Assembly (NCBI GenBank): GCA_011364965.1
Contig: RDOB01000001.1
Span: forward strand, 129,368-161,367
DNA: 32,000 nucleotides
Direction: 5' to 3'
Source: Candidatus Heimdallarchaeota archaeon
GTDB lineage: Archaea; Asgardarchaeota; Heimdallarchaeia; Hodarchaeales; Hodarchaeaceae
The notes under the pieces are model-generated. The model was not told the origin of the DNA. It saw only the letters and a list, made by a program, of their open reading frames with translations, and did not search any database. The position numbers were made by a program, and so were the translations under genes. Below are positions 2,171 to 8,226 of the stretch, piece after piece (positions within the stretch are counted from its first letter, which is position 1; every line of letters begins with the position of its first letter).

Positions 2171-3550
2171 TCATGGATATTCAGGAAGATACTCCCTGGT
2201 AACTAAAATTGATGTTTCATATCCATTGTCCATCGCTGACTCCGAGAAGGTTTGTTGCGCACTTGGTTCCCCATGCAGTGCAATAATTTTCTTAGGATGT
2301 GTATAACGCACCATTTCTAGCAAACCTTCGAGTGAAGCGTGTCCAGAGAATTCGAATTGTTTAATTTCCAGATTAAGCTGGACTTCAAATACATCTCCAA
2401 AGCCATCATCCAAAACTAAATCCGTATCACCTGATACAATTTGATGCCCAACAGTTCCTTCTACCTGATAACCCACAACATAAAGACCATTCAATTTGCT
2501 TCCAGCGTGATATCGTAAATAATCGTATACTGGTCCACCTTCAAGCATCCCAGAGGTGGTTAATGCAATGTGACTTTTTTGATTATGGCTTAGCATCTCT
2601 CGTTTCTTAATTCTTTTTCCATGTGGCGATATTTCGTCGATTGAATGGATTCCGTCGTGATCAAAAGGTGAAGTAAGTCCCTTATCCTTTAGTTCTAAAA
2701 GTATCCGTTGAGAAACCCAATCTCTAGTTAGATATTTTCGATAAATCTCATTCATTTCAAGAATCATGCCATCAACATAAAGGGGAAACTTATGAAGGAA
2801 AGAGTCAAAATCATTCATTAAATAAGCTTGAATTTCTTGAGAACGCCCCAAAGCAAATGATGGAATGATCGCTTTTCCCCCACGAGCATAACATTTCAAC
2901 AAGCTTTTTGTTAAATCTGATGTAACAACTTTTCGACTTGCGATCTGCCTATCTGCATTCGTCGTCTCAATTAATAATATATCAATCGGATTATCTGGAT
3001 CAGGGTAAACCATTGGGTCATGAAAGGGTGTTTTTGCGTTATTAAAATCCCCAGAATAAAAGATTCTGGTGCCCTCCCAATCGATTAAAATCGATGAACT
3101 TCCAAGAATGTGACTTGCATTATAAAATTCCGCGGTGATACCATCCGCTATCTTAAACTTTTTATTGTATTTGTGAATAGATATTTTGCTTTGTGCCTTA
3201 TGCATGTCAGAAACGCCATAATGGTGAGGACCTTCTATTTTTAGGTGATCTTTCCAAAGAATTTGAAGAATATCTCTTGTAGGAGTTGTCATATAGGTAA
3301 GTCCTTTGTATCCAGCCCTATATAAGGCGGGAATATAAGCAGAATGATCTATATGTGCATGAGAAAGGAGAAGAGCGGTCAATTCAGGTGCAAAAACATC
3401 TACACCTTCAGGGGGTGTAGATAGCATCCTAGTTTTACGGGGATGTAGCTGAATTCCTGCATCGATGATCACATGGTGATCCTTATCTGAAATCATCAAG
3501 CAGGATTTACCTACTGAATCTGATGCTCCAAAAACCGTAATTTCTAACAT
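2171..3550 (-). CDS. beta-CASP family metallo-beta-lactamase ribonuclease (aCPSF2 / aRNase J-like, no KH domains)
   Basis: MBL motif LLLSHAHIDHSAY, downstream conserved D/H positions (YSGDFN, ALHGEP). About 460 aa with no N-terminal KH domains. Confidence 0.8.
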   Translation of the reverse strand: MLEITVFGASDSVGKSCLMISDKDHHVIIDAGIQLHPRKTRMLSTPPEGVDVFAPELTALLLSHAHIDHSAYIPALYRAGYKGLTYMTTPTRDILQILWKDHLKIEGPHHYGVSDMHKAQSKISIHKYNKKFKIADGITAEFYNASHILGSSSILIDWEGTRIFYSGDFNNAKTPFHDPMVYPDPDNPIDILLIETTNADRQIASRKVVTSDLTKSLLKCYARGGKAIIPSFALGRSQEIQAYLMNDFDSFLHKFPLYVDGMILEMNEIYRKYLTRDWVSQRILLELKDKGLTSPFDHDGIHSIDEISPHGKRIKKREMLSHNQKSHIALTTSGMLEGGPVYDYLRYHAGSKLNGLYVVGYQVEGTVGHQIVSGDTDLVLDDGFGDVFEVQLNLEIKQFEFSGHASLEGLLEMVRYTHPKKIIALHGEPSAQQTFSESAMDNGYETSILVTREYLPEYP

Positions 3551-4495: not shown

Positions 4496-4569
4496 GGGCC
4501 GGTGGTCTAGCTCGGTATGACGCCTCCCTCACACGGAGGAAATCGATGGTTCAAATCCGTCCCGGCCCA
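4496..4569 (+). tRNA. tRNA-Val: tRNA-Val (anticodon CAC), no encoded CCA, no intron
   Basis: Cloverleaf folded by hand. Acceptor stem GGGCCGG/CCGGCCC has 7 bp. Anticodon stem is CCUCC/GGAGG with loop CUCACAC (CAC at 4530-4532). T arm is GAUGG-UUCAAAU-CCGUC. Discriminator is A4569. Confidence 0.9.
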
Positions 4570-7769: not shown

Positions 7770-7974
7770 TCTTTCAAACCCTTGTAATCAAATTACCCAA
7801 TAGCAAAGGAGACTTCTTAATATCTACAAAATGCAAAGCATATATTTTTTTGTTGGTATTATAAACAATTCTATTATTTTATTATTTCTATACCCGTAAA
7901 TTCATTTTCTAGACATATAAGCTTACCAATAGAGGATAAGAGCGAAATAATTTCAAAGGATGTGAAAAAGAAGG

Positions 7975-7983
7975 AAAAAAAAA
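7975..7983 (-). terminator. oligo-T (T9) archaeal-type terminator downstream of the 5S locus
   Basis: The minus strand reads ...GCGUAAC AUUAUUA UUUUUUUUU CC immediately after the trailer strand of the 5S precursor helix. Confidence 0.45.
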
Positions 7984-8017
7984 TAATAATGTTACGCTTA
8001 TGCCAAGGAGAGTTCTG

Positions 8018-8143
8018 TTTCCGGGTTCGGAACGAGACCGGGTGTTCCTCAGGCCCTTTGGCCGGGCAAGTACCCAGCTTTCCGATGTTCCCGTAGGCGC
8101 TAGCACAACAGTACAGATCGGAACGGAGCCTAACTTAACTTTC
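8018..8143 (-). rRNA. 5S rRNA, circularly permuted gene order (5S-homologous core; leader extends to about 8199 and trailer to 7991)
   Basis: Minus strand 8143->8080 reads GAAAGUUAAG-UUAGGCUC-CG-UUCCGAU-CUGUACUG...CGGGAAC-AUCGGAA, covering the helix III 3' strand, helix II 3' strand, helix V, loop E and helix IV. Minus strand 8078->8061 reads GCUGGG-UACUUG-CCCGGC, which is helix I capped by a loop. Minus strand 8060->8019 reads CAAA-GGGCCUGA-GGAACA-CCCGGUCUCGUUCCGAACCCGGAA, covering loop A, the helix II 5' strand, helix III and loop C. These match canonical archaeal 5S strings recalled from memory (CCCGGUCUCAUUUCGAACCCGGAAGUUAAG, CUGUACUG, CGGGAA). Helices I, II, IV and V all pair, and their G.U pairs are valid only on the minus strand. 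Confidence 0.75.
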
Positions 8144-8218
8144 GGCAGAATCTCGCAAAACTCGGCGTAACGCGTTGATTGGTGAGATTACACACCAATA
8201 CGGGCACAATCAAGAATC

Positions 8219-8226
8219 TTTATAAA
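8219..8226 (-). promoter_or_regulatory. TATA box (TTTATAAA) with purine-rich BRE-like upstream bases, promoter of the 5S locus
   Basis: The minus strand reads AGACAAGTAAATTTATAAAGATTCTTGATTGTGCCCGTATTGG. The TATA box sits about 20-30 nt upstream of where the G+C-rich structured RNA begins. Confidence 0.45.

What the first reader, a model, noticed from the sequence alone, without database searches (positions are those of the whole stretch)
7991..8199. Circularly permuted 5S rRNA gene: 3' two-thirds, then a capped helix I, then the 5' third
This is the only G+C-rich non-coding island in the window, and on the minus strand it carries every 5S hallmark in the wrong linear order. Canonical order is I5'-II5'-III-II3'-V-IV-V'-I3'. 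Here the order is as follows. First comes [GUU-AAG lower helix III strand 8139->8134]. Next [II3' UUAGGCUC 8133->8126]. Next [V UUCCGAU 8123->8117]. Next [loop E CUGUACUG plus the helix IV hairpin]. Next [CGGGAAC, then V' AUCGGAA 8086->8080]. Next [I3' GCUGGG 8078->8073]. Next [hexaloop UACUUG]. Next [I5' CCCGGC 8066->8061]. Next [loop A CAAA]. Next [II5' GGGCCUGA 8056->8049]. Last comes [GGAACA-CCCGGUCUCGUUCCGAACCCGG-AA 8048->8019, helix III plus loop C]. Helix II closes as 8 bp between the two halves, including G8055.U8127 and G8050.U8132. Helix I has U8076.G8063 and helix IV has a U.G pair. These wobble pairs would be C.A mismatches on the plus strand, which fixes the strand. The normal 5'/3' ends are covalently closed, and the new ends fall at the conserved AA bulge of helix III. 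A TATA box (8219-8226) and a T9 run (7975-7983) bracket the unit, so it looks like an expressed gene rather than a fragment. I know of permuted 5S rRNAs in some organelles and a permuted SRP RNA in Thermoproteus. I do not recall a permuted chromosomal archaeal 5S being described.
Basis: partly seen in the sequence, partly recalled or inferred. Interest (0 to 1): 0.9.

Follow-up and report, generated by a model that had tools for sequence, protein, structure and literature searches.

The report
Permuted, probably circular, Asgard 5S rRNA
This is a real 5S ribosomal RNA gene whose two halves are encoded in swapped order. It is conserved across Asgard archaea, is invisible to standard annotation, and carries flanking signals predicting that the transcript is cut and rejoined into a circle that restores the normal 5S sequence.

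Summary
On the minus strand, 8139→8019 encodes a complete 5S rRNA in the order II3'–V–E/IV–V'–I3'–cap–I5'–A–II5'–III/C.

Rfam RF00001 sees only two sub-threshold fragments, in swapped order. A permuted covariance model built only from other Asgard lineages hits the window full-length (102 bits).

The same architecture occurs in about 60 independent Asgard contigs. These carry Heimdall-, Hod-, Njord-, Odin-, Jord-/Frey- and Hel-archaeota labels, and three are chromosome-level records. Covariation in all five helices is strong. No canonical-junction version of the Heimdall-type sequence exists in the metagenome collection.

New here: every lineage has a covarying leader–trailer stem. It is followed by a 3–4-bp helix and a 3-nt bulge, which is a relaxed bulge-helix-bulge site. 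Cutting by the standard splicing-endonuclease rule and ligating gives CNGG-AA-GUYAAG, the canonical 5S sequence, in every lineage.

I therefore predict a 121-nt circular 5S rRNA. This step is inferred and has no RNA data behind it.

I found no prior report. Closed Heimdallarchaeum genomes were published with "5S could not be predicted".

Verdict: a new variant of a known kind, of high interest.

The parts
8219..8226 (-). Archaeal TATA box TTTATAAA. The predicted transcription start is near G8196 (inferred from spacing, not mapped).
   Evidence: Sequence. A TATA-like element followed by GAYUCUUGA sits at the same position in L005, L006, L007, L008 and L009.
8181..8196 (-). 5' leader hairpin GGUG-UGUAAUCU-CACC at the predicted 5' end of the primary transcript.
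   Evidence: Folds. A hairpin of different sequence sits at the same place in L007, L008, L024 and L028. Function unknown.
8146..8175 (-). Leader strand of the leader-trailer (LT) helix. Outer segments are 8175-8161. The inner stem GAGAUUCUG is 8154-8146 and plays the role of helix 'h' of the BHB-like site.
   Evidence: RNAduplex gives -23.3 kcal/mol. All 7 inner LT pairs show compensatory changes across 49 sequences. The outer stem changes from GUUACGC/GCGUAAC to GUUACGU/ACGUAAC in L005.
8142..8145 (-). Leader tetranucleotide CCGA. It pairs with C8022-G8021... (CGG) of the helix III 3' strand to form the central helix 'H' (3 bp plus an A.C mismatch here; 4 bp in 28 of 50 relatives).
   Evidence: H covaries between lineages: CCGG/CCGG, CGUG/CACG, GYCG/CGGC, CUGG/CCAG, CCGU/GCGG.
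8139..8141 (-). Single-stranded AAG following H (the position of bulge 1). The predicted 5' cut lies between A8140 and G8139.
   Evidence: This segment is always exactly 3 nt (AAG, AAA, AAU or ACG). The cut position follows the established endonuclease rule and is inferred.
8019..8139 (-). Predicted mature 5S rRNA, 121 nt, encoded in permuted order and predicted to be ligated G8139-to-A8019 into a circle.
   Evidence: Permuted model R1, trained without this clade, hits 8146-8019 full-length at 102.3 bits, E 2e-22. The circular MFE fold gives the 5S Y-shape.
8126..8133 (-). Helix II 3' strand UUAGGCUC. It pairs with 8056-8049.
   Evidence: 8 bp. 7 of 8 pairs show compensatory change.
8080..8123 (-). 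Gamma domain: helix V (8123-8117 with 8086-8080), loop E (GUACUG...GGGAAC) and the helix IV hairpin.
   Evidence: RF00001 partial alignment. Helix V has 7 of 7 compensatory pairs and helix IV has 4 of 8.
8061..8078 (-). Helix I closed by the cap loop: GCUGGG-UACUUG-CCCGGC.
   Evidence: Compensatory G-C to A-U change in L007 and L008. 6 of 8 pairs are compensatory in the held-out alignment. Caps in other lineages include UUCG tetraloops.
8049..8060 (-). Loop A CAAA plus the helix II 5' strand GGGCCUGA.
8021..8041 (-). Helix III and loop C: CCGGUC-UCGUUCC-GA-AC-CCGG.
   Evidence: RF00001 positions 27-51, 19.6 bits. G-C to U-A change at one pair in 17 sequences.
8018..8020 (-). 3-nt bulge AAA (bulge 2). 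The predicted 3' cut lies between A8019 and A8018.
   Evidence: A bulge of exactly 3 nt (AAA, GAA, AGA, AAU or GAU) is present in all the sequences in which the scripts placed the site (39 of 40; 47 of 50).
7994..8017 (-). Trailer strand of the LT helix: CAGAA-C-UCUC, CUUGGC, UAAGCGU.
7975..7983 (-). T9 run, a likely archaeal terminator.
   Evidence: Sequence. T-rich runs follow the trailer in relatives.

Best explanation
This is the organism's 5S rRNA gene, a stand-alone transcription unit with a circularly permuted order. The RNA starts with the 3' two-thirds of a normal 5S. It runs through a helix I that is closed by a short loop and ends with the 5' third.

In the precursor, leader and trailer pair into a long stem. 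The next 4 leader bases pair with the 3' strand of helix III. This leaves a 3-nt bulge on the 3' side and a 3-nt single-stranded stretch on the 5' side. Together these make a relaxed bulge-helix-bulge (BHB) site.

I propose that the tRNA-splicing endonuclease EndA cuts after the second nucleotide of each 3-nt element (8140|8139 and 8019|8018). The ligase RtcB then joins the ends. The product would be a 121-nt covalently circular 5S rRNA whose junction, CCCGGAA-GUUAAG, recreates the canonical sequence.

**Shown:**
- the permuted gene and its conservation
- covariation of all helices and of the leader-trailer stem
- the invariant geometry of the site
- in-silico restoration of the canonical junction

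**Inferred:**
- which enzymes act
- that ligation happens
- that the circle is the ribosomal form

My sub-confidences are about 0.95 for a functional permuted 5S gene, about 0.7 for processing at the BHB-like site, and about 0.55-0.6 for a circular final product.
For: **Gene identity and order**
- establish the 5S elements and their permuted order.
- An out-of-sample permuted covariance model scores 102.3 bits full-length. RF00001 gives 19.6 and 12.7 bits, and a bacterial canonical 5S scores only 36.6 bits with the permuted model.

**Covariation**
-. In the held-out alignment 95.9% of cells are paired and 21 of 37 pairs are compensatory.

**Independent assemblies and synteny**
-.

**Breadth**
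- 33 of 37 genome-collection loci and 27 of 29 metagenome loci show the same architecture.

**Blindness of standard annotation**
- None of 17 Asgard loci is detected at Rfam gathering score, while the control scores 97.5 bits.
- Wu et al. 2022 could not predict a 5S gene in closed Heimdallarchaeum genomes (PMC8813620).

**No canonical junction**
- The canonical-junction pattern has 0 hits in the collection that holds many permuted copies.

**The BHB-like site**
- A leader-trailer duplex of -14 to -35 kcal/mol sits in fixed register in the lineages with full flanks.
- The extension helix and an exact 3-nt bulge are present in 39 of 40 sequences.
- The predicted junction equals CNGG-AA-GUYAA in 47 of 50 sequences by script and in the other 3 by eye.
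- Only the known cut rule, after the second bulge nucleotide, gives the canonical sequence in L080 (leader ACG), in the Hel type (AAU/AGA) and in the register-shifted Jord/Odin type (AAA/GAA).

**Precedent and machinery**
- The permuted Thermoproteus SRP RNA is circularised at a BHB by EndA (PMC4731332).
- Asgard archaea encode EndA and RtcB and make circular 16S and 23S rRNA (PMC12918454).
- A tetraloop-closed helix I is tolerated in E. coli ribosomes (PMC7283268).
- UUCG-type caps on helix I argue that the cap is permanent.
Against: - No RNA data exist. No junction reads, ends or abundance have been measured.
- The site is a relaxed BHB. There is no second flanking helix (h').
- In the window the central helix has only 3 pairs plus an A.C mismatch, as in 22 of 50 sequences.
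- In the nearest-neighbour model the BHB-like conformer is 4 kcal/mol less stable than the conformer with helix III closed.
- The type of EndA in these organisms was not examined.
- BHB polarity and cut position rest on my knowledge of the tRNA anticodon-intron pair rule. I found no intron-containing tRNA in the fetched loci to use as an internal control.
- I could not scan whole genomes for a collinear 5S gene.
- Some Asgard MAG descriptions list a 5S gene as present, with the method unstated.
Confidence: 0.6

Rival explanations
1. The mature RNA is a linear permuted 5S rRNA. The leader-trailer stem guides cleavage or trimming, but the ends at the helix III/loop B AA are never joined. The ribosome would carry a nicked beta domain and a capped helix I, as in brown-algal mitochondria where the product itself is permuted.
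For: - The permuted order and capped helix I are established.
- The brown-algal permuted mitochondrial 5S is permuted in the final product (PMC4267664).
- The BHB is only relaxed and there is no h' helix.
Against: - A plain nick would not need the AA duplicated at both ends.
- Nor would it need a covarying 4-nt leader element complementary to helix III, or bulges of exactly 3 nt.
- The standard cut rule regenerates the canonical sequence in every lineage, including the register-shifted ones.
- EndA products are normal RtcB substrates (PMC4731332).
Confidence: 0.2
2. The circle is only an intermediate. After ligation it is reopened in the helix I cap loop, giving an ordinary linear 5S rRNA. This would mirror Pyrococcus 23S rRNA, which is circularised and then opened elsewhere.
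For: - Precedent for circularising and then reopening at a distant site exists (PMC7758197, listed; cited).
- The result would be a canonical 5S, removing the conflict with the canonical 5S of eukaryotes.
Against: - Caps are tight 3-6-nt loops with no conserved sequence. Several are UUCG-type tetraloops.
- No second BHB-like element flanks the cap.
- Helix I is short in the window clade (6 bp).
Confidence: 0.12
3. A normal collinear 5S gene exists elsewhere in these genomes and serves the ribosome. The permuted locus would then be a conserved paralogue with another role.
For: - I could not scan whole genomes.
- Some MAG descriptions state that a 5S gene is present in Jord-, Borr- and Kariarchaeum.
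Against: - Wu et al. could not predict any 5S gene in two closed Heimdallarchaeum genomes 'using various approaches'.
- The canonical-junction form of the Heimdall-type sequence has zero hits in the metagenome collection, against many permuted copies.
- All ribosome-contact motifs (loop C, loop E, AAGUUAAG) are conserved as in true 5S.
- Reported '5S present' calls could be partial HMM hits to this gene (my inference, untested).
Confidence: 0.05
4. The locus is an assembly chimera or a decaying pseudogene made of two 5S fragments.
For: - RF00001 gives only two fragment hits.
- A truncated extra copy does exist next to the intact gene in L037.
Against: - Independent assemblies give identical sequence.
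- About 60 loci across Asgard classes share the same junctions.
- Compensatory changes, a promoter and a terminator are all present.
Confidence: 0.01

Closest known systems
Permuted, circularised SRP RNA of Thermoproteus (Plagens et al. 2015, eLife, PMC4731332)
   Same: - An essential universal ncRNA gene with swapped halves that standard searches could not find.
- Leader and trailer fold into a BHB at the new termini.
- Cutting and ligation restore the conserved sequence.
- The old termini are replaced by continuous sequence.
- A TATA promoter and a short leader are present.
   Different: - The RNA here is 5S rRNA, not SRP RNA.
- The distribution spans many Asgard classes rather than one crenarchaeal genus.
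- The BHB here lacks h' and its central helix borrows the 3' strand of a mature helix (helix III).
- Circularisation here is only predicted. In Thermoproteus it was shown by RNA-seq, northern blotting and in-vitro EndA cleavage.
Permuted mitochondrial 5S rRNA of brown algae and other stramenopiles (Valach et al. 2014, PMC4267664; Rfam mtPerm-5S)
   Same: - A 5S rRNA in which helix I is replaced by a closed hairpin.
- The termini lie elsewhere, and the standard 5S model misses it.
   Different: - It is organellar.
- The new ends lie at the alpha/gamma junction (loop A), and beta still precedes gamma.
- The product is stated to be a linear permuted RNA.
- No leader-trailer BHB is described.
- Here the break is inside the beta domain and the gamma domain comes first.
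Circular and permuted large rRNAs of archaea (P. furiosus 23S, PMC7758197; circular 23S in ribosomes, PMC12918454)
   Same: - BHB in a leader-trailer processing stem.
- EndA/RtcB circularisation of a ribosomal RNA.
- Circular rRNA can be the form inside ribosomes.
- Asgard archaea are reported to make circular 16S and 23S rRNA.
   Different: - Those genes are collinear, and circularisation joins the natural ends.
- The same paper states that 5S rRNAs are not known to be processed this way.
- Here the gene itself is permuted and ligation is needed to rebuild an internal strand.
Permuted and split tRNA genes (Cyanidioschyzon merolae; Nanoarchaeum split tRNAs), as cited in PMC4267664 and PMC4731332
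   Same: Gene halves are in inverted order or separate, and are rejoined at relaxed BHB or BHL motifs by the splicing machinery.
   Different: - In C. merolae the circle is an intermediate that is reopened to give normal tRNA ends.
- The RNA class differs.
- No capped terminal helix is involved.
Engineered circularly permuted 5S (cp5S) in E. coli (Huang et al. 2020, PMC7283268)
   Same: The native 5S ends are closed with a tetraloop. Ribosomes carrying it assemble and support growth.
   Different: - It is artificial.
- It is opened in loop C or D and fused into 23S rRNA.
- It is bacterial.

Membership tests
5S rRNA (Rfam RF00001) | Three-way junction of helices I, II-III and IV-V supported by covariation | tested here: met
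   RNAalifold recovers all helices. 30 of 42 and 21 of 37 pairs are compensatory, and controls are far lower.
5S rRNA (Rfam RF00001) | Conserved loop motifs: loop C CCGAAC, AAGUUAAG, loop E GUACUG...GGGAA, loop A | tested here: met
   RF00001 partial alignments. Invariant columns in 49- and 23-sequence alignments.
5S rRNA (Rfam RF00001) | Collinear order I5'-II5'-III-II3'-V-IV-V'-I3', scoring at or above the gathering threshold (38 bits) | tested here: not met
   The window scores 19.6 and 12.7 bits as two fragments in swapped order. None of 17 Asgard loci is detected, while a bacterial control scores 97.5 bits. The failure is one of gene order, not of structure.
5S rRNA (Rfam RF00001) | Component of the large ribosomal subunit (binds uL18 and uL5) | not testable with these tools
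   Needs ribosome purification or cryo-EM.
BHB substrates of the archaeal splicing endonuclease | Central 4-bp helix | tested here: inconclusive
   The helix has 4 pairs in 28 of 50 distinct sequences. In 22 of 50, including the window (CCGA/CCGG), it has 3 pairs plus a terminal mismatch. The helix covaries between lineages.
BHB substrates of the archaeal splicing endonuclease | At least one 3-nt bulge adjoining the central helix, backed by an outer helix (definition as in PMC4731332) | tested here: met
   An exact 3-nt bulge lies between H and the leader-trailer stem in 39 of 40 sequences and 47 of 50. Definition.
BHB substrates of the archaeal splicing endonuclease | Second 3-nt bulge closed by a further helix h' (strict hBHBh') | tested here: not met
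   On the 5' strand, H is followed by exactly 3 nt and then UYAAG. No helix forms with the bases 5' of H on the other strand (inspection). The motif is therefore relaxed (hBH/BHL-like).
BHB substrates of the archaeal splicing endonuclease | Cleavage by EndA after the second bulge nucleotide, and ligation by RtcB | not testable with these tools
   Only indirect evidence. That cut rule alone regenerates the canonical 5S sequence in all lineages.
Permuted ncRNA genes repaired by circularisation (Thermoproteus SRP RNA type) | Permuted gene order, with a leader-trailer processing motif at the new termini and a junction that restores conserved sequence | tested here: met
   (in silico).
Permuted ncRNA genes repaired by circularisation (Thermoproteus SRP RNA type) | Junction-spanning transcripts or circular RNA detected | not testable with these tools
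mtPerm-5S (Rfam, brown-algal mitochondrial permuted 5S) | Helix I replaced by a 5' hairpin with termini at the alpha/gamma junction, and beta before gamma | tested here: not met
   The break lies between helix III 3' and loop B, and gamma precedes alpha and most of beta. Description in PMC4267664. No such family was listed in the E<=10 scan, although overlapping clan hits are suppressed there.

The most novel reading that the evidence does not exclude
Asgard archaea as a whole, the closest known relatives of eukaryotes, encode their only 5S rRNA as a permuted gene. They would build their ribosomes with a covalently circular 5S rRNA made by the tRNA-splicing machinery. That would be the first circular 5S rRNA and the first permuted 5S gene in a cellular chromosome. 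It is also a rare genomic change, absent from eukaryotes, that could help polarise the Asgard-eukaryote branching order.
Probability: 0.45. Interest if true: 0.95.

Novelty: new variant of a known kind. Interest (0 to 1): 0.9.

Why it matters
**Annotation.** It explains a practical puzzle. 5S rRNA genes "could not be predicted" in closed Heimdallarchaeum genomes (PMC8813620). Rfam-based annotation misses every Asgard copy tested here. Asgard MAGs may therefore fail the 5S criterion for high-quality genomes for a biological reason. A permuted covariance model fixes this at once.

**Biology.** 5S rRNA is among the most conservative RNAs known. A permuted gene across a whole archaeal kingdom, probably yielding a circular 5S, would extend circular rRNA biology to the third rRNA. 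The current literature says this processing route does not apply to 5S.

**Evolution.** Eukaryotes have a collinear 5S gene. If their Heimdall/Hod-like ancestor carried the permuted gene, the order must have been reversed on the eukaryotic stem, or eukaryotes branched before the permutation arose. This rare, nearly homoplasy-free character makes that question directly testable.

**Method.** It provides a natural experiment on which parts of 5S topology the ribosome actually needs.

Tried and rejected
1. **Wrong BHB polarity.** My first scripted BHB search placed the bulge 5' of the central helix and found nothing consistent. That negative result is invalid and I withdrew it. With the polarity that follows from the anticodon-intron pair rule, the site is found in register in 47 of 50 sequences.
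2. **Strict hBHBh' motif.** Rejected, because no h' helix exists.
3. **Rfam.** The gathering scan found no 5S hit. Only the E-value mode showed the two fragments.
4. **Doubled-copy test.** I replaced it with the converse test: a permuted model trained on other lineages and searched against the native window.
5. **Internal control for BHB polarity.** I looked for an intron-containing tRNA in 60 loci as a control. None was found.
6. **Whole-genome search for a collinear 5S.** Not possible. Its substitutes were the canonical-junction pattern (0 hits) and the literature.
7. **Literature.** Ten searches found no report of a permuted or circular archaeal 5S. The library lacks most subscription journals, so absence is not proof.
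8. **EndA subunit type in Asgard.** Not examined, because no query protein is encoded in the window.
9. **Precursor folding.** Unconstrained MFE folding gives a mixed structure. It is not informative about the processing conformer.
Full report
**1. What is in the window**

On the minus strand between a TATA box (TTTATAAA, 8226-8219) and a T9 run (7983-7975) lies a 53% G+C island in a roughly 33% G+C genome.

- AAGUUAAG (8141-8134)
- helix II 3' strand (8133-8126)
- helix V (8123-8117 with 8086-8080)
- loop E and the helix IV hairpin
- helix I (8078-8073 with 8066-8061), closed by UACUUG
- loop A CAAA
- helix II 5' strand (8056-8049)
- helix III/loop C, ending in CCCGGAA at 8019

Rfam at gathering threshold finds only tRNA-Val in the window. 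In E-value mode RF00001 gives two fragments. Model positions 27-51 match at 8043-8019 (19.6 bits). These lie downstream of the loop E/IV/V part at 8165-8072 (12.7 bits). Two short ORFs overlap the island and are best read as artefacts.

**2. It is not an assembly artefact and it is conserved**

The neighbouring MptE-like protein occurs with identical flanking DNA in an NCBI MAG (GCA_016839295.1) and in three independent Logan assemblies. One of these differs by two trailer bases.

Orthologous loci keep the synteny MutS - metallo-beta-lactamase - [RNA] - MptE - PTPS and carry the same permuted RNA. They include the chromosome-level records CP070695.1 and CP070760.1. In one clade the RNA lies on the other strand of the same spacer.

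I then scanned with a DNA pattern that demands the permuted order: loop E, then GGGAA, then helix III/loop C.

- **Species-representative genomes:** 37 loci. 33 are permuted 5S genes from MAGs labelled Heimdall-, Hod-, Hermod-, Njord-, Odin-, Jord-, Frey- and Hel-archaeota or unclassified Promethearchaeota. The other four are chance matches.
- **Metagenome contigs:** 29 loci. 27 are of the same kind.
- **Missed by the pattern:** synteny turned up a more divergent copy, L080. The true spread is therefore wider than the pattern shows.

**3. Structure and covariation**

- RNAalifold on a plain MAFFT alignment of 49 distinct sequences predicts helices II, V, IV, I and III in the permuted connectivity. 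21 of 31 pairs are compensatory.
- With my explicit structure, 84.9% of cells pair and 30 of 42 pairs show double changes. The covariation score is 0.468, against 0.182 for shuffles (0 of 500 reach it) and at most 0.21 for slid partners.
- A covariance model built only from Odin, Jord, Njord, Hel and other non-Heimdall sequences hits the window at 8146-8019 over all 129 positions, at 102.3 bits, E 2e-22.
- The same model finds all 25 other held-out Heimdall/Hod-type loci at 82-116 bits. A bacterial collinear 5S gets only 36.6 bits.
- In the held-out alignment 95.9% of cells pair and 21 of 37 pairs are compensatory.
- RF00001 at gathering threshold detects none of 17 Asgard loci. It scores the bacterial control at 97.5 bits.

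This is therefore a genuine 5S rRNA in structure and motifs, and it fails the family model only through gene order.

**4. Is there also a normal 5S gene?**

I could not scan whole genomes. Three lines of evidence argue against one.

- The canonical junction of the Heimdall-type sequence (TCCGAACCCGGAAGTTAAGTYAGG) has zero matches in the metagenome collection, which holds many permuted copies.
[quoted passage not shown] Those are not the genomes I sampled; their sizes differ.
- The permuted gene keeps every conserved 5S motif under evident selection.

Against this, descriptions of Jord-, Borr- and Kariarchaeum MAGs list a 5S gene as present without giving the method. These could be partial HMM hits to this gene or real collinear copies. 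The point stays open.

**5. The flanks: a relaxed bulge-helix-bulge site**

Every lineage with full flanks has a leader-trailer duplex (-14 to -35 kcal/mol). Its sequence is unrelated between lineages but its register is fixed. It ends 4 nt (5 in Jord/Odin) before AAGUYAAG and resumes 3 nt after the helix III 3' strand. All 7 inner pairs covary.

The 3-5 leader bases that follow the stem are complementary to the 3' strand of helix III:

| Lineage type | Leader / helix III 3' strand |
|---|---|
| Heimdall and others | CCGG/CCGG |
| Jord, Odin | CGUG/CACG |
| Hel | GYCG/CGGC |
| L080 | CUGG/CCAG |
| L065 | CCGU/GCGG |

This leaves a bulge of exactly 3 nt on the 3' strand in 39 of 40 sequences.

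My first BHB script used the wrong polarity, and its negative result is void. The correct polarity rests on established knowledge. In pre-tRNA, nucleotide 32 pairs with the intron base at -3, the bulge is -2, -1 and 38, and cleavage follows the second bulge nucleotide.

With that polarity the arrangement reads as follows:

- leader strand: h - H(4) - 3 nt - ...
- 3' strand: ... - H(4) - 3-nt bulge - h

Plagens et al. define a BHB as a central 4-bp helix flanked by at least one 3-nt bulge. This arrangement fits that definition. The second flanking helix h' is absent, so the motif is relaxed.

Applying the standard cut rule gives these products:

| Lineage type | 3' end + 5' end | Ligated junction |
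|---|---|---|
| Window and most others | ...CCCGGAA + GUUAAG... | CCCGGAAGUUAAG |
| Jord/Odin | CACGGA + AGUCAA | CACGGAAGUCAA |
| Hel type | CGGCAG + UCAAG | CGGCAGUCAAG |
| L080 | CCAGAA + GUUAAG | CCAGAAGUUAAG |

The window cuts fall at 8140|8139 and 8019|8018. Each junction has the length and sequence of the canonical CNGG-AA-GUYAAG (Rfam consensus). For L080 and the Hel type no other symmetric cut position does this. In Jord/Odin, cutting after the first or the second bulge nucleotide both work.

I regard this as the strongest indication that the two ends are cut by the splicing endonuclease and joined. Because helix I is already closed, the product would be a 121-nt circle. Folded as a circle, it adopts the 5S Y-shape.

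Asgard archaea encode EndA and RtcB and produce circular 16S and 23S rRNAs (PMC12918454). The same paper notes that 5S rRNAs are not known to use this route.

**6. Weak points**

- No transcript data were available.
- In the window the central helix is 3 bp plus an A.C mismatch.
- The processing conformer is 4 kcal/mol above the helix III-closed conformer in the nearest-neighbour model.
- The EndA type in these organisms is unknown.
- A linear nicked product cannot be excluded.
- Reopening in the helix I cap also cannot be excluded. The caps, however, are tight loops of unconserved sequence, and several are UUCG-type tetraloops. That argues the cap is permanent.
- Closing helix I with a tetraloop is compatible with ribosome function in E. 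coli (PMC7283268).

**7. Comparison with what is known**

- **Closest analogue:** the permuted SRP RNA of Thermoproteus, which is circularised at a leader-trailer BHB by EndA (PMC4731332).
- **Only described permuted 5S rRNAs:** those of stramenopile mitochondria. Their new ends lie at the alpha/gamma junction and the linear product is itself permuted (PMC4267664). That is a different breakpoint and a different mechanism.
- **Prior reports:** ten full-text searches found no report of a permuted or circular 5S in any archaeon or other cellular genome. The caveat is that much of the subscription literature is not searchable here.

**8. Verdict**

The finding widens in two ways. It changes from one odd gene to a trait seen in many classes of Asgard archaea. 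It also gains a specific, testable maturation mechanism.

I class it as a new variant of known kinds: 5S rRNA, and permuted ncRNA genes repaired by the splicing machinery. Interest is high.

Noticed in passing
L011 2654-2809 (+); also L012, L039, L042: In one clade the permuted 5S lies on the opposite strand of the same MBL-MptE spacer. It carries a roughly 28-nt insertion in loop C (CGAA-AGAUAUGAAGGAAUUUCUUCAUUCCGGG-AACCCGG), with a hairpin AUGAAG/CUUCAU and a repeat of CAUUCCG. The clade comprises MAGs TM1M.79 and TM2S.58 and a Logan assembly. The permuted model still scores 99 bits. This could be an expansion segment or a mini-intron.
   Followed up: partly
L009 about 2631-2700 (minus strand), compared with L010: One Hodarchaeales contig has a 37-nt tandem duplication of the helix III 3' half plus the start of the trailer (CCGGUCUCAUUCCGAACCCGGAAACAAUAUCCCCUGG, twice). 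A near-identical contig from a sister sample lacks it. This is either a real polymorphism or an assembly slip.
   Followed up: no
L037 3150-3275 (+): A truncated second copy lies 340 nt upstream of the intact gene. It has the leader hairpin, the leader stem and the first ~75 nt of the permuted 5S (with GUAUUG instead of GUACUG), and then diverges. It is probably a decaying duplicate and scores 24 bits with R1.
   Followed up: partly
window 8181-8196 (-); the same position in L005, L007, L008, L024, L028: A hairpin sits right at the predicted transcription start (GGUG-UGUAAUCU-CACC in the window). It is conserved as a structure with varying sequence. The loop UAAUCUC recurs in Hod-type loci. 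Its role is unknown.
   Followed up: no
window 7909-8106 (-) and 8000-8170 (+); L009 2662-2904 (+): Mechanical or pipeline ORFs of 56-80 aa overlap the RNA gene. JGI annotates an 80-aa hypothetical protein on top of it. Public proteomes of Asgard MAGs therefore probably contain spurious proteins derived from this locus.
   Followed up: no
L014 (DATKTP010000169.1, labelled Deferrimicrobium) and L044 (JAPDJY010000015.1, labelled Thermoproteota): Two contigs filed under non-Asgard names carry Hel-type and Jord-type permuted 5S genes. These are nearly identical to copies in Asgard MAGs and metagenome contigs (L054, L073, L035). The contigs are probably mis-binned or mislabelled. The permuted 5S could serve as a marker for Asgard contigs.
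   Followed up: no
L023 and L046 (Hodarchaeota MAG YT1_021): Two different contigs of one MAG each carry a permuted 5S gene with slightly different flanks. This means either two gene copies or two strains in the bin.
   Followed up: no
window 4496-4569 (+): tRNA-Val(CAC) scores 62 bits and has G+C 0.62. It is a second G+C-rich non-coding island. It lies beside the MutS-like gene, and a tRNA-Val(CAC) was also found in L005, L017, L023, L028, L040 and L047.
   Followed up: partly
literature: PMC9723677 and bioRxiv 10.1101/2020.10.19.343400: Descriptions of the Jordarchaeum, Borrarchaeum and Kariarchaeum type MAGs state that a 5S rRNA gene is present. This sits oddly with permuted genes in Jordarchaeia that Rfam cannot detect. 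Whether those calls are partial hits to the permuted gene is unresolved.
   Followed up: no
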